Virus record (IMG/VR): IMGVR_UViG_2703718820_000014
DNA from: a virus
Lineage: Duplodnaviria; Heunggongvirae; Uroviricota; Caudoviricetes
Length of the DNA stretch: 18,596 bases
Direction: 5' to 3' (one strand)
Below are positions 3,451 to 12,575 of this stretch, piece by piece (positions within the stretch are counted from its first letter, which is position 1; each line of letters opens with the position of its first letter). Under the pieces are notes generated by a model that saw only the letters and a program-made list of their open reading frames with translations, was not told the DNA's origin and made no database searches. The translations under genes were made by a program, and so were the position numbers.

Positions 3451-4509
3451 TTATGCTTTCCACTTCAGAACACCCGAATTTCTCGCGTGCATTAAAAAAC
3501 GAATCAGCAACAACAGCTGACTGCCGTGTTTCTCTTCAAAATCTTTTACCCCGGCGTGTAGTTCGTTATGGCATTTACGGCATAACGGAATAACAAACAA
3601 ATCGTCAGCCTTTGTTCCCATACCTCCCAGTCCATGACCAATGATGTGATGCGGATCATCTGCCTGATTGCCACACGTCATGCATTTCTGCGTTTTTACC
3701 CAGCGCGTGTATACAGGCATCTCTTCCCGTTGTGGTTTCTGGCGCTGGAGGTACTGAGCCGGAGACTCCGGATCAACGGCGATGCTTACTAACGTCTTTT
3801 CCTGGGGGGGATTTTGTTGCTGGTGGACGTGAAGTGGCAGCGCAATATTTTTTGTGCGCTGCTTCAGTATGCTGGTGGCGGCCTGCTCTCCCGGTATGAT
3901 GTCGCTCTCACGGTATACGGAGCGGATTTTTTCCGCTGGTAATCCCAGCGAACGACGCACTACTGCCTCAGGTAGTGCATCCACCACCTGATTGCAGACC
4001 GCCCACCAGGATAATTCGGCCAGCGATAACTCCCTCTCCTGCGTACTGCTTATTGCGTGACGGATGACGTCAATCATCCAGGCAACCAGATTCTGCTGAG
4101 CAAGTTGATCGAGTGATTCTGATGTCTGGTCGCGCAGCTGGTTGTCACAGTGCCAGCACAACACCATCGCGCCGGTACCGTAACGGTGAATGACGGTTTC
4201 GCTGTGATGATAATCACCGTGTGGCCACTGGCAGGATTTCACGTGACGTAATAACCAGTCAGACAGTGCACCTGCACCACCTGCTGCACGAATAACCCGC
4301 TCATCGCTGAAAAATGGCAGTAATGTTTTATCCTCTGCCAGCGGCTGGCGAACGGCAGGAACGACTCCGGACGGCAGACCGCGCATGTTTTTCGGTTCCG
4401 GTTCCACCAATATTCTGCCGTTATGGAATGCTGACATTGATTCACGGCCCGGCTTAAGGAGCACCATCCCGAGTTCCGGTACCAGAACAGGTCGAAGTAA
4501 TACCCGCAC
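3451..4509 (-). CDS. DUF968-family protein (HNH-like Cys/His motif)
   Basis: 352-aa ORF with C-terminal CMTCGN...HHIIGHG...CRKCHNELHAG cysteine/histidine cluster. GTG start at 4509 is preceded by GGAGGT overlapping the upstream stop. Confidence 0.75.
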   Translation of the reverse strand: MRVLLRPVLVPELGMVLLKPGRESMSAFHNGRILVEPEPKNMRGLPSGVVPAVRQPLAEDKTLLPFFSDERVIRAAGGAGALSDWLLRHVKSCQWPHGDYHHSETVIHRYGTGAMVLCWHCDNQLRDQTSESLDQLAQQNLVAWMIDVIRHAISSTQERELSLAELSWWAVCNQVVDALPEAVVRRSLGLPAEKIRSVYRESDIIPGEQAATSILKQRTKNIALPLHVHQQQNPPQEKTLVSIAVDPESPAQYLQRQKPQREEMPVYTRWVKTQKCMTCGNQADDPHHIIGHGLGGMGTKADDLFVIPLCRKCHNELHAGVKDFEEKHGSQLLLLIRFLMHARNSGVLKWKA

Positions 4510-4510
4510 G

Positions 4511-4789
4511 TTACCTCCAGATGCGCTGCTGGAATGTGCGGGACGGACGCGGTGGGCGTTCGGAATAAGGGAGCCTGACGGAGATTATCCAGTGACGACG
4601 ATCGAAGCTGAGATCTTTCTGAAACTCGTAACCACGTCTGCGGTAGCACTGGATCAGCCATTCGGCCTGTTCTTCAGTGCATGGGTCATGCTGGAACCAG
4701 TCAGATTTGAATGCATGAGAACGCCGCCCGTGCCTGCTGGCAGGGGCGGCAGAGTTATCCGAATTGTGTAATTTGGTATCTTGCGCCAT
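4511..4789 (-). CDS. Hypothetical protein (start uncertain: ATG 4789 or TTG 4843)
   Basis: ORF in the same operon orientation ending 2 nt before the DUF968 start. No recognised motif. Confidence 0.4.
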   Translation of the reverse strand: MAQDTKLHNSDNSAAPASRHGRRSHAFKSDWFQHDPCTEEQAEWLIQCYRRRGYEFQKDLSFDRRHWIISVRLPYSERPPRPSRTFQQRIWR

Positions 4790-4861
4790 CGGTTGTCTCT
4801 GCTGGCGCAGCAGGTGCCAGTTGTTCAGGCTGGCGTGCGGCAATATTGTCTCTGATTTCTG

Positions 4862-4889
4862 TTGTCGTCAACAGGCAGCGTGCTATCAT
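4862..4889 (+). promoter_or_regulatory. Candidate sigma70 promoter for the parDE-like module
   Basis: TTGTCG at 4862-4867, 16-nt spacer, TATCAT at 4884-4889, about 35 nt upstream of the ParD-like ATG. Confidence 0.35.
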
Positions 4890-4924
4890 CGAATAGTGTT
4901 CTATCCTACTCCGTGAGGTTTACC

Positions 4925-5182
4925 ATGCGTACAACCCAACAATTCAGCATTACATTAACTAACGAGATGGCTGACATGGTGCGCGCCCGTGTGGCTTCCG
5001 GTGCCTATGCTTCAGAAAGCGAGGTCATTCGTGAAGGGCTTCGCGCACTGAATGAGCGCGATAAAGCAATCGAAGCGTGGTTAACGCATTCAGCCGCCCC
5101 CTCTCTTGATTCTATCCGCGAAAACCCAAACAACGGACGCTCCATTTCACAGGTTCGCGCCGCGATTCGATCCGGGAAGTAA
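4925..5182 (+). CDS. parD: ParD-like antitoxin (ribbon-helix-helix, COG3609-type)
   Basis: 85 aa from ATG 4925 with GAGGT upstream. The sequence ITLTNEMADMVRARVASGAYASESEVIREGLRAL is typical of ParD antitoxins; it is followed 5 nt later by a ParE-like ORF. Confidence 0.8.
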   Translation: MRTTQQFSITLTNEMADMVRARVASGAYASESEVIREGLRALNERDKAIEAWLTHSAAPSLDSIRENPNNGRSISQVRAAIRSGK

Positions 5183-5187
5183 TCTGC

Positions 5188-5487
5188 ATGACATATGAAG
5201 TCATCATTACTCCTGAGGCCGAACAACAAATAATCAACCTGCACAGATATATAACGGAGAAAGCAGGGAACGTCATTGCTGACAATTATGCCAATGCGCT
5301 TCTTGATTATCTTGATGGGTTTTCTACATTCCCGCATCGGGGCAATAAACGCGATGATATTCGCCAGGGGATGCGGGTAACTCATTTCCGCCACAGAACG
5401 ATTATTGCTTTTGCCGTTGATGGCAGAAAAGTCTTTATTGTCGGTATCTATCATGGTGGGCAAAGTTATGAAACCGATTTCTTATAA
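5188..5487 (+). CDS. parE: ParE/RelE-family toxin
   Basis: 99-aa ORF tightly linked downstream of the ParD-like gene, with the size and gene order of a type II ParDE pair. Confidence 0.8.
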   Translation: MTYEVIITPEAEQQIINLHRYITEKAGNVIADNYANALLDYLDGFSTFPHRGNKRDDIRQGMRVTHFRHRTIIAFAVDGRKVFIVGIYHGGQSYETDFL

Positions 5488-5568
5488 ACTTTTACCCACA
5501 TCATTCCGGTGTTAGAATAAACCGTCCGCCCCTCTCTTACTGCGGATTCGTAGGCTATATAAATCAAA

Positions 5569-5602
5569 GATCCCGGCTCATGTTTGTGGCGGGATCTTTT
5601 TT
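5569..5602. terminator. Terminator hairpin between the convergent parE and DUF551 operons (strong on + strand, weaker on - strand)
   Basis: Stem gatcccggc / gcgggatc (5569-5596) followed by T6 at 5597-5602; the - strand version is followed by TTTGATTT. Confidence 0.55.
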
Positions 5603-5609
5603 CGGCGAT

Positions 5610-5693
5610 TTATCCCCAGCGGCAAATCGAATACACCACCAGCGCCACCGCCATTGCAATACCAACATTTGAGAAGGCCTCAGGCCAGCTCAT
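5610..5693 (-). CDS. Candidate 27-aa hydrophobic peptide (MSWPEAFSNVGIAMAVALVVYSICRWG)
   Basis: ATG at 5693 overlaps the DUF551 stop as ATGA; AAGGAGGTG lies 7 nt upstream. Too short to appear in the ORF track. Confidence 0.3.
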   Translation of the reverse strand: MSWPEAFSNVGIAMAVALVVYSICRWG

Positions 5694-6043
5694 TGGCGCA
5701 CCTCCTTCGGCGGTTCTGGTAGCGGCATCCAGTGTGTGGCTTCACACACGATAGGCGCACCGAAACACTGCGCATACTGGAAGTCACCCGTATTATCCAG
5801 GTTAAAACCTGTAAACTGTTCACCCGTGCTGGACACAAACAGTAGTACATCAACACCAACTGGCGGCATTCGCTCACTACAGCTTATCCAACCATCCGGA
5901 GTTACCGGAGAATTGCCAGCCTTGCGCATGGCAATCTCCATGATTTCAACCATATCCCCTGGTGGAATTTTACAATGCTGACCAGTATGCTTCTGCTGCC
6001 TGGCATATTCGAGGATGTGCTCCAGCTTGATACGATTAATCAT
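5690..6043 (-). CDS. DUF551-family phage protein
   Basis: 117 aa ending in the characteristic ATHWMPLPEPP motif. ATG at 6043 overlaps the upstream stop (ATGA) with GGGAGA upstream. Confidence 0.8.
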   Translation of the reverse strand: MINRIKLEHILEYARQQKHTGQHCKIPPGDMVEIMEIAMRKAGNSPVTPDGWISCSERMPPVGVDVLLFVSSTGEQFTGFNLDNTGDFQYAQCFGAPIVCEATHWMPLPEPPKEVRQ

Positions 6044-6393
6044 GATTTATCTCCCTGAAGCATGGCTTCGCGGCAGTCGTTCCAGCCTTCAGCATAATCA
6101 CTATATGCAAGAGGCCAACCGTTTCTGTATTCACGCGGCAACTTACTAGGCACTGGCGGGGCGGCGTAAAGCTGGTGCGTTCCATCAGGCAGCGAGTGAC
6201 CAACATACTCACCGAACCCGTCAACACACATGCCCCCATCTTCAATAATACATGAAGCTACAGGCTTCGCTTCCAGCGATGCCAGCGCGATAAGCGCCAG
6301 CTCACGAATTTCACCGCCGTCTATATCGTCAATGTCATCGCGGCCAGAAATGTTAGCCAGCCATTGCAGTCGCTCTTTGGTAATAGTGGTCAT
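6040..6393 (-). CDS. Hypothetical phage protein
   Basis: 117-aa ORF with ATG at 6393 preceded by GAAGGAGAG; it sits between coupled neighbours in the same operon. Confidence 0.65.
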   Translation of the reverse strand: MTTITKERLQWLANISGRDDIDDIDGGEIRELALIALASLEAKPVASCIIEDGGMCVDGFGEYVGHSLPDGTHQLYAAPPVPSKLPREYRNGWPLAYSDYAEGWNDCREAMLQGDKS

Positions 6394-11910: not shown

Positions 11911-12270
11911 TTATAATCCAACCAGGCTTTCCAGGGGGATACCAAATTGATTATGAAGACGGCGAATCATTGGTAACGTAAGGCTTCTGGTACCATTCAA
12001 CACCTCATAAACCCGATTTTTTTTCCCAATTGCGGGTTCCAAATCTTTCACAGTCAGCCCCTGCTGTTCCATGCGAAATCTTATAGCTTCAATTGGGGAT
12101 GGTGGCTCAATGGGATAATGTTTTTTTTCATATTCCTCTATTAGCAAACACATCACCTCAAAAAAATCCCCCTCAGGCGTGTCAATTTCGGGCTCATTGT
12201 CGAACATGGGTTCAACAGCACGCAACGCGGCTTCATAATCTTGCTCTGTACGAATAGGTTTGATGTTCAT
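11911..12270 (-). CDS. higA: HigA-like antitoxin (HTH)
   Basis: 119 aa; motifs IKPIRTEQDYEAAL and GLTVKDLEPAIGKKNRVYEVLNGTRSLTLPMIRRL are typical of HigA. It begins 2 nt after the HigB-like stop. Confidence 0.75.
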   Translation of the reverse strand: MNIKPIRTEQDYEAALRAVEPMFDNEPEIDTPEGDFFEVMCLLIEEYEKKHYPIEPPSPIEAIRFRMEQQGLTVKDLEPAIGKKNRVYEVLNGTRSLTLPMIRRLHNQFGIPLESLVGL

Positions 12271-12272
12271 GC

Positions 12273-12575
12273 TTACTCCAGTTCGATGGTATCAGCATCA
12301 ATAGCATCGTATTCCTTGTGGTTTCCGATGAATTTAACAAATACCCATCCTCGCTGATACGCAATTGCAACAATTAAACGGTAATGATTACCTTTTATGT
12401 TGAATACCACGCGCCGGTTTTTCAATATACTGGCCGTTCGGTATTGTGCCTTAATGTCTGCTGGGCTTTTCCAGTCAGCTTTTGCCGCCTCATCCACCCA
12501 TGCCCTTAGCGGTTGTTCTGCATCAGGATTCTCCGCCCAAAAATCCCTGAGTGTTTTAACTGAGATAATCTTCAT
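12273..12575 (-). CDS. higB: HigB-like toxin (RelE/ParE superfamily)
   Basis: 100 aa from ATG 12575; VFNIKGNHYRLIVAIAY...FIGNHKEYD matches the HigB pattern. Toxin-first gene order as in higBA. Confidence 0.7.
   Translation of the reverse strand: MKIISVKTLRDFWAENPDAEQPLRAWVDEAAKADWKSPADIKAQYRTASILKNRRVVFNIKGNHYRLIVAIAYQRGWVFVKFIGNHKEYDAIDADTIELE

What the first reader, a model, noticed from the sequence alone, without database searches (positions are those of the whole stretch)
4862..5602. ParD/ParE-like toxin-antitoxin pair inserted antisense within the nin-like operon
The pair lies on the + strand between convergent - strand blocks, with its own candidate promoter (4862-4889) and a strong terminator hairpin (5569-5602). 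The relBE pair of the Qin prophage occupies an analogous position next to a DUF968 gene, as I recall, which would suggest a recurrent insertion slot with exchangeable TA cargo.
Basis: partly seen in the sequence, partly recalled or inferred. Interest (0 to 1): 0.5.

Follow-up and report, generated by a model that had tools for sequence, protein, structure and literature searches.

The report
Prophage ParD/ParE toxin-antitoxin cassette
This is a real but ordinary ParD/ParE-type toxin-antitoxin gene pair with its own promoter and terminator, sitting backwards in a lambdoid E. coli prophage at a spot that usually holds a different toxin-antitoxin gene (hokD).

Summary
parD (4925-5182, 85 aa) and parE (5188-5487, 99 aa) lie on the + strand. 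A sigma-70-like promoter sits at 4862-4889 and a strong hairpin plus U-tract at 5566-5602. The pair is antisense to a - strand operon running from replication genes through DUF551, orf92, DUF968 and RusA to a Q-like gene.

Both proteins pass curated thresholds (ParD_antitoxin, TIGR02606, ParE_toxin). Profile and fold searches hit only ParE toxins first; RelE-type RNases score clearly lower. Both genes are intact and under purifying selection (dN/dS 0.04-0.19).

RefSeq and PHROGs already annotate the pair, which occurs in 328 of 5426 complete E. coli genomes. I found no experimental paper on it.

The "exchangeable slot" idea is largely right. The same slot holds hokD (type I toxin) in about 2253 genomes and an unknown 93-aa gene in 4. 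Qin holds rem-hokD-relE-relB there, but in the sense orientation and two genes from DUF968.

The same module (4842-5693) also occurs in phage ArgO145, next to isrK/C4/anti-repressor. Some Stx2a phages keep only parD.

Most likely function, inferred: an autoregulated addiction or stabilisation module with a gyrase-poisoning toxin. Interest is low to moderate.

The parts
4862..4889 (+). Candidate sigma-70 promoter of parDE: -35 TTGTCG (4862-4867), 16-nt spacer, extended -10 TGcTATCAT (4881-4889)
   Evidence: Consensus scan gives 9/12 plus TG. The site is identical in ArgO145 and in the Stx2a-phage copies. The -10 block is conserved in Salmonella and Enterobacter homologues. Not mapped experimentally.
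4883..4907 (+). Candidate ParD operator: half-sites CTATC (4883-4887), GAATAG (4891-4896) and CTATCC (4902-4907), overlapping the -10 and the predicted start site
   Evidence: The block GTGCTAT..GAATAGTGTTC(T/A)ATCC is conserved upstream of parD in the window, L089 and L092, although their further upstream DNA is unrelated. R751 has a different 7-bp-arm palindrome at the same place. Inference only.
4925..5182 (+). parD antitoxin gene, 85 aa, with an N-terminal ribbon-helix-helix domain
   Evidence: PF03693 32.1 bits (cut-off 21) and TIGR02606 53.8 bits (cut-off 46.2). Best PDB sequence hit is Caulobacter ParD1, 3kxe_C. phrog_6494 'antitoxin'. RefSeq WP_001260977.1. dN/dS 0.04-0.16.
5188..5487 (+). 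parE toxin gene, 99 aa
   Evidence: PF05016 40.9 bits (cut-off 23). The family profile hits only ParE chains 6x0a, 5ceg, 7ycs and 8c24. AF2 model pLDDT 82.8; its top 23 Foldseek hits are ParE toxins. phrog_5232 'toxin'. RefSeq WP_000220600.1. dN/dS 0.08-0.19.
5566..5602 (+). Intrinsic terminator hairpin (stem 5566-5575/5590-5599) followed by a U-run. It also folds on the - strand.
   Evidence: + strand: -21.5 kcal/mol, z -3.0. - strand: -17.9 kcal/mol, z -3.3, but with a poorer U-tract.
5610..5693 (-). Unannotated 27-aa hydrophobic ORF (MSWPEAFSNVGIAMAVALVVYSICRWG). Its ATG overlaps the stop of the upstream DUF551 gene (ATGA). It forms the right edge of the portable module.
   Evidence: Nearly all copies found in the related loci, in every kind of context, keep a 27-codon frame with several amino-acid variants; two of 76 blast hits did not yield the frame. 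Homology breakpoints fall at 5609/5610 and 5693. No PHROG or PADLOC match.
4842..4871 (-). Leftward promoter-like site (TTGACG 4871-4866, 18 nt, AATATT 4847-4842). It shares the palindrome TGTTGTCGTCAACA (4860-4873) with the parDE -35.
   Evidence: Scan gives 9/12. The homologous site in ArgO145 is 10/12, and its -10 ends 7 nt before the 5' end of an Rfam isrK match. Function in the window is untested.
4511..4789 (-). orf92, the first gene of the left flank (phrog_1212, unknown function), followed by DUF968 (3451-4509)
   Evidence: Annotated 279-nt hypothetical gene in L001 and L003. PHROG hit. DUF968 PF06147 at 215 bits.
5690..6043 (-). DUF551 gene, the variable right flank of the slot
   Evidence: PF04448 58.8 bits. 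Present to the right of the cassette in only about a third of the viral loci.

Best explanation
The region is a self-contained type II toxin-antitoxin moron of the ParD/ParE family, carried by a lambdoid E. coli prophage.

**Shown**
- The operon is bicistronic: parD (ribbon-helix-helix antitoxin, 85 aa) then parE (ParE-fold toxin, 99 aa).
- It has a sigma-70-like promoter and an intrinsic terminator.
- It lies antisense to the early-right (nin-like) operon, between a DUF551 gene plus a 27-aa ORF on one side and orf92-DUF968-RusA-Q on the other.
- Both genes are intact and under purifying selection.
- The cassette is one of several alternative cargoes of this slot.
- The cassette also occurs as a portable module (4842-5693) elsewhere in phage genomes.

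**Inferred from what is known of ParDE systems (RK2, Caulobacter, Vibrio, P. aeruginosa, M. tuberculosis)**
- ParD dimers bind an operator over the -10 and start site, candidate CTATC/GAATAG repeats at 4883-4907, and autorepress the operon.
- The ParD C-terminal half wraps and neutralises ParE.
- ParD is protease-labile.
- When its synthesis stops, free ParE poisons DNA gyrase, causing DNA breaks, SOS and growth arrest. Synthesis would stop on loss of the prophage, on transcription shut-off, or possibly when induced rightward transcription collides with the antisense operon.

The most probable biological role is stabilisation (addiction) of the prophage. Because the pair has its own promoter, it would be expressed in the lysogen independently of the phage repressor.
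For: **Family assignment**
- ParD and ParE pass the curated cut-offs.
- A profile of 16 homologues hits only ParE chains in the PDB.
- The AF2 model (pLDDT 82.8) matches P. aeruginosa, Mesorhizobium, M. tuberculosis, V. cholerae, Caulobacter and O157 ParE toxins at TM 0.64-0.74, ahead of all RelE-type RNases.
- ParD's best PDB relatives are ParD antitoxins.

**Gene order, spacing and signals**
- Shine-Dalgarno sites, promoter and terminator are as described.

**Selection and distribution**
- Both genes are intact in almost all of about 80 related loci, with dN/dS 0.04-0.19.
- Presence/absence and cargo replacement occur at identical flanks.
- The ParD-ParE pairing is kept in unrelated contexts: a Salmonella prophage TA island, an Enterobacter island, and plasmid R751 kluAB at 47% identity.

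**Precedent**
- Prophage ParE systems that stabilise or regulate their prophage are published: ParESO/CopASO (PMC8706911) and PfiT/PfiA (PMC7264888).
- PHROGs files both genes under 'moron'.
Against: - No experiment on this pair was found, so toxicity, neutralisation, target and role are all inferred.
- Identity to any solved ParE is only 12-24%.
- From my own knowledge, some ParE toxins (for example O157 ParE2) were not shown to inhibit gyrase in vitro, so the target is not guaranteed.
- The promoter match alone is no better than chance.
- The candidate operator rests on a three-lineage footprint only.
Confidence: 0.75

Rival explanations
1. The pair acts mainly as an abortive-infection or anti-phage defence module of the lysogen. 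An infecting phage shuts off host transcription, ParD decays, and ParE stops the cell before the invader completes its cycle.
For: - It is a prophage moron with its own promoter.
- The slot's usual occupant is hokD, and the prophage carries a second TA pair, HigB/HigA.
- A Salmonella homologue sits in a cluster with VapBC, Fic and Hok.
- From general knowledge, TA systems are often defence systems.
Against: - Neither protein matches any PADLOC model.
- I found no paper showing defence by a ParDE pair.
- This role does not exclude stabilisation.
Confidence: 0.15
2. The toxin is a RelE-like ribosome-dependent mRNA endonuclease rather than a gyrase poison. The pair would then be functionally a RelBE-type system, like the one in Qin.
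For: - RefSeq names the toxin only 'RelE/ParE family'.
- From my own knowledge, Pfam PF05016 also contains RelE-like sequences.
- The folds are related: RelE, YoeB and YafQ appear lower in the fold list.
Against: - hhalign against E. coli RelE gives probability 0.5%.
- No RelE, YoeB, HigB or YafQ chain appears in the profile search of PDB sequences even at E <= 10.
- Their TM-scores (0.37-0.59) are well below those of ParE toxins (0.64-0.74).
- The partner is a ParD-type RHH antitoxin, not RelB.
Confidence: 0.05
3. The main selected function is regulatory. ParD (or the ParD-ParE complex), bound at the shared divergent promoter region, also controls leftward transcription. That would be orf92-DUF968-RusA-Q here, and isrK-C4-anti-repressor in ArgO145 and Stx2a phages. 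The state of the TA pair would then be tied to prophage induction.
For: - The palindrome TGTTGTCGTCAACA carries the -35 of both promoter-like sites.
- In ArgO145 the leftward site is 10/12, and its -10 ends 7 nt before the isrK 5' end.
- About 45 Stx2a phages keep an intact parD (86% aa identity) next to isrK/C4/ant although parE is gone. Of the two most divergent parD alleles (dN/dS 0.04 and 0.16), the 0.16 one is probably this copy.
- PfiA and PfiT modulate Pf4 production (PMC7264888).
Against: - The conserved footprint in distant homologues lies over the parDE -10 and start site, not over the palindrome.
- A related prophage with another cargo and no parD keeps the palindrome and the leftward site.
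- There is no binding or expression data.
Confidence: 0.1
4. The + strand ORFs are incidental, and the real gene is the 152-aa - strand ORF (5005-5463), co-oriented with the operon. Alternatively, the TA pair is a decaying remnant.
For: - A stop-free antisense stretch of about 150-158 codons is present in the window and also in the Salmonella and Enterobacter homologues.
Against: - The antisense ORF has no Pfam match.
- Synonymous-codon shuffles of parD and parE give an equally long antisense stretch in 19%, 31%, 9% and 4% of trials.
- The antisense 'proteins' diverge strongly, whereas the sense frames show dN/dS of 0.04-0.19 and intact genes.
Confidence: 0.02

Closest known systems
ParD/ParE type II toxin-antitoxin systems (RK2 parDE; Caulobacter ParDE1, 3KXE; Mesorhizobium ParDE, 5CEG/6X0A; P. 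aeruginosa ParDE, 6XRW; M. tuberculosis ParDE1, 8C24)
   Same: - Antitoxin-first bicistronic operon.
- RHH ParD matching PF03693 and TIGR02606.
- ParE fold.
- Protein sizes of 85 and 99 aa.
   Different: - Only 12-24% identity to solved ParE toxins.
- Located in a lambdoid prophage nin-like region rather than on a plasmid or in the core chromosome.
- Target and toxicity are untested.
KluA/KluB of IncP-1beta plasmids (R751 and relatives)
   Same: The closest plasmid relatives found. The toxin is 46.9% identical over 97% of its length. The antitoxin is of the ParD family and the gene order is the same.
   Different: - Plasmid-borne, with overlapping genes.
- A different palindrome sits at the promoter.
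- As far as I know, also not characterised functionally.
Prophage-borne ParE systems: ParESO/CopASO of Shewanella CP4So and PfiT/PfiA of Pseudomonas Pf4
   Same: A ParE-superfamily toxin encoded by a prophage as accessory cargo. PfiT is among the top fold matches (9w3a). The published roles are prophage maintenance or control of phage production (PMC8706911, PMC7264888, PMC13048266).
   Different: - Different phage types (P4-like, filamentous).
- Different antitoxin in CP4So (CopA-type).
- Low sequence identity (about 16% to PfiT).
relBE-hokD region of the Qin cryptic prophage of E. coli K-12
   Same: The same region of a lambdoid prophage, upstream of the DUF968 gene ydfU and the Q-like ydfT. 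The left flank is homologous to window 4203-4806 at 81%. TA cargo was acquired by insertion (PMC6379469).
   Different: - relBE is co-oriented with the operon.
- It lies two genes (rem, hokD) away from ydfU.
- The toxin is an mRNA interferase, unrelated at sequence level to this ParE.
- The junctions differ.
PaaR-PaaA-ParE three-component systems of E. coli O157:H7 prophages
   Same: A ParE-fold toxin on an EHEC prophage. ParE2 (5CW7/5CZF) is a fold match at TM about 0.70-0.72.
   Different: - No third regulator gene is present here.
- The antitoxin is a ParD RHH protein rather than PaaA.
- 18-19% identity.

Membership tests
ParE toxin (ParE branch of the RelE/ParE superfamily) | Sequence match to the ParE family model above the curated threshold | tested here: met
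   PF05016 scores 40.9 bits against a cut-off of 23, covering model positions 1-89 of 89. There is no NCBIfam equivalog hit.
ParE toxin (ParE branch of the RelE/ParE superfamily) | Closer to experimentally defined ParE toxins than to RelE-type RNases in sequence profile and fold | tested here: met
   The profile search hits only ParE chains. The top 23 Foldseek hits are ParE toxins at TM 0.64-0.74, against 0.37-0.59 for RelE, YoeB, YafQ and HigB. hhalign against RelE gives 0.5%.
ParE toxin (ParE branch of the RelE/ParE superfamily) | Toxicity through poisoning of DNA gyrase | not testable with these tools
   Needs expression and gyrase assays.
ParE toxin (ParE branch of the RelE/ParE superfamily) | Absence of the RelE catalytic residues | tested here: inconclusive
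   No reliable alignment to RelE could be obtained, so residue-level comparison is not meaningful.
ParD antitoxin | N-terminal ribbon-helix-helix domain matching the ParD models | tested here: met
   PF03693 scores 32.1 bits (cut-off 21) and TIGR02606 scores 53.8 bits (cut-off 46.2), over residues 6-51. The best PDB hits are ParD1 3kxe and ParD 7ycv, 7b22 and 8c24.
ParD antitoxin | Encoded immediately upstream of its toxin in one operon, with the pairing kept across contexts | tested here: met
   The gap is 5 nt. The pairing is kept in the Salmonella, Enterobacter and R751 contexts.
ParD antitoxin | Binds and neutralises ParE, and autorepresses the promoter | not testable with these tools
   Only a candidate operator was found, by phylogenetic footprint.
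RelB/RelE system | RelE-type toxin and RelB-type antitoxin | tested here: not met
   There is no significant similarity to K-12 RelE. The antitoxin matches ParD and RHH models, and no RelB model appears at E <= 1.
Phage moron (an autonomous accessory transcription unit inserted between phage genes) | Own promoter and terminator, present or absent among otherwise related phages, at gene boundaries | tested here: met
   Promoter-like site and terminator. Identical flanks hold hokD, another cargo or parDE. Breakpoints fall at 4834-4842 or 4872 on the left and 5609/5610 or 5693 on the right. Promoter activity itself is not tested.
PaaR-PaaA-ParE three-component system | Third gene encoding a regulator, and a PaaA-type antitoxin | tested here: not met
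   Only two genes lie between promoter and terminator. The antitoxin is of the ParD family.
Catalogued anti-phage defence systems (PADLOC-DB 2.0) | Match to a defence-system protein model | tested here: not met
   0 families for ParD, ParE, the 27-aa ORF and orf92.

The most novel reading that the evidence does not exclude
The parDE unit is a portable divergent-promoter module. Its RHH antitoxin would repress its own operon and would also gate the back-to-back leftward promoter. That promoter would be P(isrK), driving isrK, C4 and the anti-repressor, in ArgO145 and Stx2a phages. In the window it would drive orf92-DUF968-RusA-Q. Loss of ParD under stress would then feed directly into prophage induction, and in Stx phages into toxin output. 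This would explain why some Stx2a phages keep an intact, purifying-selected parD after losing parE.
Probability: 0.1. Interest if true: 0.6.

Novelty: new member of a known kind. Interest (0 to 1): 0.28.

Why it matters
The pair itself is a routine, already annotated ParDE module, so on its own it adds little.

The modest value lies in the context. One defined slot of lambdoid E. coli prophages, upstream of orf92 and DUF968, behaves as a toxin-antitoxin exchange point. It holds hokD in about 42% of complete genomes, parDE in 6%, hokD plus relBE in Qin, and occasionally other cargo.

The same parDE module also sits beside the isrK/C4/anti-repressor switch of Stx-converting phages, sometimes as an orphan antitoxin. 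If ParE activation (gyrase poisoning, then SOS) or ParD regulation feeds into induction of Shiga-toxin prophages, it would bear on Stx release. That link is untested.

Tried and rejected
- **Antisense ORF.** I tested the 152-aa - strand ORF (5005-5463) as a possible real gene. It has no Pfam match. Its openness is explained by the ParD and ParE amino-acid sequences: synonymous shuffles give P = 0.19, 0.31, 0.09 and 0.04. Rejected as a shadow ORF.
- **RNA families.** An Rfam scan of window 4400-6100 at E <= 1 found nothing.
- **tRNA-like motifs.** Motifs left of the ArgO145 copy are not tRNAs. They are isrK and C4 RNAs.
- **Defence models.** PADLOC gave no hits.
- **Literature.** Searches for this pair, by accession numbers, ParDE with Stx or prophage, and ArgO145, found no characterisation. 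Several apparent 'ParE' hits were word-start artefacts such as 'parental' and 'Pardessus'.
- **Repeats.** Repeat search in 4780-4960 found no strong inverted repeat apart from 4782-4809, inside orf92's start region. The operator candidates were found only by comparing homologues.
- **The -35 palindrome as ParD operator.** I considered this and downgraded it. The Salmonella homologue does not conserve it, and a related prophage without parD keeps it.
Full report
**1. What is in the sequence**

The + strand between 4862 and 5602 carries two adjacent ORFs.
- parD starts at ATG 4925 and stops at 5182 (85 aa). A GAGG lies 6 nt upstream of the ATG.
- parE runs 5188-5487 (99 aa) and starts 5 nt after the parD stop.
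- The ORF list shows a 106-aa version of parD from TTG 4862. That is only the upstream extension of the same frame.

The promoter scan returns TTGTCG-16-TATCAT, preceded by TG, at exactly 4862-4889. With 9 of 12 matches it is no rarer than chance: 3 sites were found against 1.6 +/- 1.3 in shuffles. Its credibility comes from its position 36 nt before the start codon and from its conservation (see section 5).

The hairpin AAAGAUCCCG...CGGGAUCUUU (5566-5599) runs into a U-tract. It folds at -21.5 kcal/mol, z = -3.0. It also folds on the opposite strand (-17.9 kcal/mol, z = -3.3), but with a poor U-tract.

**2. Surroundings**

The closest complete genomes annotate the flanks, all on the - strand. 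In order of - strand transcription they are:
- replication genes (DUF1376 and P-like);
- DUF1627, DUF4406, ead/Ea22-like and DUF551 genes;
- the slot;
- a 279-nt hypothetical gene (orf92, window 4511-4789), DUF968 (3451-4509), RusA and a Q-like or DUF1133 antiterminator;
- a DNA methyltransferase.

Pfam confirms DUF968 and DUF551 in the window. The pair thus lies antisense inside the region equivalent to lambda nin.

It is divergent from orf92 and convergent with a small unannotated 27-aa ORF (5610-5693, - strand). That ORF's ATG overlaps the DUF551 stop. "Between convergent - strand blocks" is therefore loosely worded, but the essence (antisense inside one operon) is right.

**3. Classification**

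*Antitoxin*
- ParD passes Pfam ParD_antitoxin (32.1 bits, cut-off 21) and TIGR02606 (53.8 bits, cut-off 46.2).
- Its best solved relatives are ParD antitoxins, such as Caulobacter ParD1 3kxe.

*Toxin*
- The toxin passes Pfam ParE_toxin (40.9 bits, cut-off 23) over the whole model.
- To my knowledge that Pfam family also takes in RelE-like proteins, and RefSeq says only "RelE/ParE family". I therefore tested ParE against RelE separately.
- A profile of 16 homologues (alignment A2) finds only ParE chains in the PDB sequence set, even at E <= 10 (6x0a, 5ceg, 7ycs, 8c24).
- An AlphaFold model (pLDDT 82.8) has as its 23 best Foldseek hits only ParE-family toxins, with TM 0.64-0.74. They come from P. 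aeruginosa, Mesorhizobium, M. tuberculosis, V. cholerae and Caulobacter, plus PrpT, PfiT and O157 ParE2.
- YoeB, RelE, YafQ and HigB follow with TM 0.37-0.59.
- hhalign against K-12 RelE gives 0.5% probability.
- hhalign against RK2 ParE gives E = 1.2e-4 over 88 columns.

PHROGs holds both proteins as "antitoxin" and "toxin" in the moron category. No PADLOC defence model matches.

**4. Is it functional, and how common is it?**

- The 761-bp unit occurs in 371 of 5426 complete E. coli genomes. It is near full length in 328, always chromosomal.
- All 328 also carry the orf92 flank.
- Among 80 IMG/VR loci, 76 have it in the same slot next to orf92, and where the contig reaches that far, next to DUF968 as well.
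- Both genes are intact in nearly all loci.
- Against the most divergent alleles, dN/dS is 0.04-0.16 for parD and 0.08-0.19 for parE. Both are under purifying selection.
- The long antisense ORF (5005-5463) has no family match. Synonymous-codon shuffling reproduces an equally long open antisense stretch in 4-31% of trials. It is a shadow ORF.
- More distant homologues (62-72% identity) keep the ParD-ParE pairing in other settings:
  - a Salmonella prophage cluster VapB-VapC / ParD-ParE / Fic / Hok;
  - an Enterobacter island with an integrase and IS elements;
  - the kluA-kluB genes of IncP-1beta plasmids such as R751, 46.9% identical.

**5. Cassette borders and the slot**

*Breakpoints*
- The best whole-window relative (NZ_CP046539) shares the flanks up to 4872 and from 5610 onwards. 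In between it carries a different + strand gene with its own hairpin: 93 aa, no Pfam match.
- hokD-carrying prophages share the left flank to 4834-4839 and the right flank from 5609 or 5674.
- Phage ArgO145 shares 4842-5693 (96.7%) in a completely different place: the early-left region between an anti-repressor and HNH/ea22 genes.

The portable module is therefore 4842-5693. It comprises the divergent promoter region, parD, parE, the terminator and the 27-aa ORF. The strictly exchangeable cargo is about 4873-5609.

*Slot census*
- A chimeric flank query showed that the same slot holds parDE or hokD.
- Counting with junction-spanning queries gives:
  - hokD in the slot in 2253 of 5426 genomes;
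  - parDE in 328;
  - the 93-aa cargo in 4.

*Qin (K-12)*
- The order is ydfT(Q)-ydfU(DUF968)-rem-hokD-relE-relB, all on one strand.
- The left flank is homologous to window 4203-4806.
- A published analysis describes relBE there as a plasmid-derived insertion that truncated the ancestral hokD reading frame (PMC6379469).

The default cargo is a type I system, hokD. And relBE in Qin is sense-oriented and two genes away from DUF968.

**6. Promoter region in detail**

- The palindrome TGTTGTCGTCAACA (4860-4873) carries two -35 elements. One is the parDE promoter's TTGTCG. The other, on the other strand, is TTGACG, followed after 18 nt by AATATT (4847-4842).
- In ArgO145 the homologous leftward site is TTGACG-18-TATATT (10/12). 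Its -10 ends 7 nt before the 5' end of a full-length Rfam isrK match.
- That isrK match scores 53 bits against a gathering score of 50. It is followed by a C4 antisense RNA (70 bits) and the anti-repressor gene.
- The isrK promoter is known to drive isrK-orf45-anrP in Gifsy-1 (PMC4825925).
- So the module carries a back-to-back promoter pair. In the window the leftward member points at orf92-DUF968-RusA-Q, but it is weaker and untested.
- Comparing upstream regions of distant homologues shows a conserved block over the -10 and start site: GTGCTAT..GAATAGTGTTC(T/A)ATCC. It has CTATC/GAATAG/CTATCC half-sites at 4883-4907.
- The palindrome is not conserved in the Salmonella copy. I therefore take the CTATC/GAATAG array, not the palindrome, as the more likely ParD operator. 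This is inference only.

**7. Orphan antitoxin**

About 45 Stx2a-converting phage records match only window 4854-5201, at 87.7%.
- In one of them (L004) parD is intact and 86% identical in protein.
- Homology stops 14 nt into parE.
- A lipoprotein-like ORF and an HTH gene follow.
- Of the two most divergent parD alleles, one has dN 0.073 and dS 0.469 (ratio 0.16) and is probably this copy. I did not confirm the allele assignment.
- Either way parD there looks maintained, which hints at an antitoxin-only function such as cross-neutralisation or regulation.

**8. Mechanism**

*Shown:* the gene pair, the family, the fold, the transcription signals by consensus, selection, and mobility.

*Inferred from characterised ParDE systems:*
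- ParD dimers autorepress at the operator.
- The ParD C-terminal half neutralises ParE.
- ParD is labile.
- Free ParE poisons gyrase and triggers SOS and growth arrest.

The pair has its own promoter and opposes the repressed rightward operon. It should therefore be expressed in lysogens. Its most likely role is prophage stabilisation, as published for ParESO/CopASO in CP4So (PMC8706911). Control of phage production, as for PfiT/PfiA (PMC7264888), and abortive infection are the alternatives. After induction, rightward transcription would run antisense through parDE and could lower ParD supply. This is speculation.

**9. Verdict**

This is a correct call of an ordinary, already annotated but experimentally uncharacterised ParDE module, so it counts as a new member of a known kind. 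The slot polymorphism and the link to isrK/anti-repressor and orphan ParD are the only mildly interesting extensions. Interest is about 0.28.

Noticed in passing
window 5610-5693 (- strand): An unannotated 27-aa hydrophobic ORF (MSWPEAFSNVGIAMAVALVVYSICRWG). Its ATG overlaps the DUF551 stop (ATGA). Nearly all copies found in the related loci keep a 27-codon frame with several amino-acid variants; two of 76 blast hits did not yield the frame. It has no PHROG or PADLOC match and marks the right edge of the portable module.
   Followed up: partly
window 11911-12575 (- strand): A second toxin-antitoxin pair in the same prophage, beside the immunity region. The HigB toxin matches PF09907 at 113.7 bits, followed by an HTH_3 (HigA-like) protein. 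It is annotated as HigB family in the closest genome.
   Followed up: partly
L004 2572-2829 (Stx2a phage LC727840) and about 45 similar phage records: An orphan parD, 86% identical in protein, with parE replaced 14 nt into the gene. A lipoprotein-like 93-aa ORF and an HTH gene follow. The antitoxin is intact and appears maintained.
   Followed up: partly
L002 (phage ArgO145) 4059-4241 (- strand): isrK sRNA (53 bits) and C4 antisense RNA (70 bits) lie directly left of the parDE module, followed by an anti-repressor gene. A 10/12 leftward promoter inside the shared module ends 7 nt before the isrK 5' end. The window keeps a 9/12 version at 4871-4842 but has no isrK.
   Followed up: partly
L003 5459-5740 (+ strand), same slot in NZ_CP046539: An alternative cargo of the slot: a 93-aa protein with no Pfam match, its own hairpin terminator, and the same left junction right after the -35 palindrome. 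It is found with these flanks in only 4 of 5426 genomes.
   Followed up: partly
L006, L007, L008 (hokD prophages) and L005 (Qin): hokD (type I toxin), in the sense orientation, is the usual occupant of the slot (2253 of 5426 genomes). A hairpin plus T-run on the - strand lies just upstream of orf92 in L007, so rightward transcripts must read through a terminator in those prophages too.
   Followed up: partly
L089 4013-6526 (Salmonella prophage): A cluster of accessory toxin-type genes: VapB-VapC(PIN), ParD-ParE (72% identical toxin), a Fic-domain gene and a Hok/Gef gene. It sits between DUF1391/KilR/exonuclease VIII and DUF1627 genes.
   Followed up: no
window 5491-5518 (+ strand): Another 9/12 promoter-like site (TTTACC-16-TAGAAT, with TG) lies just after the parE stop and before the terminator. 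It is also present in ArgO145. No ORF follows it before the hairpin, so it is probably chance.
   Followed up: no
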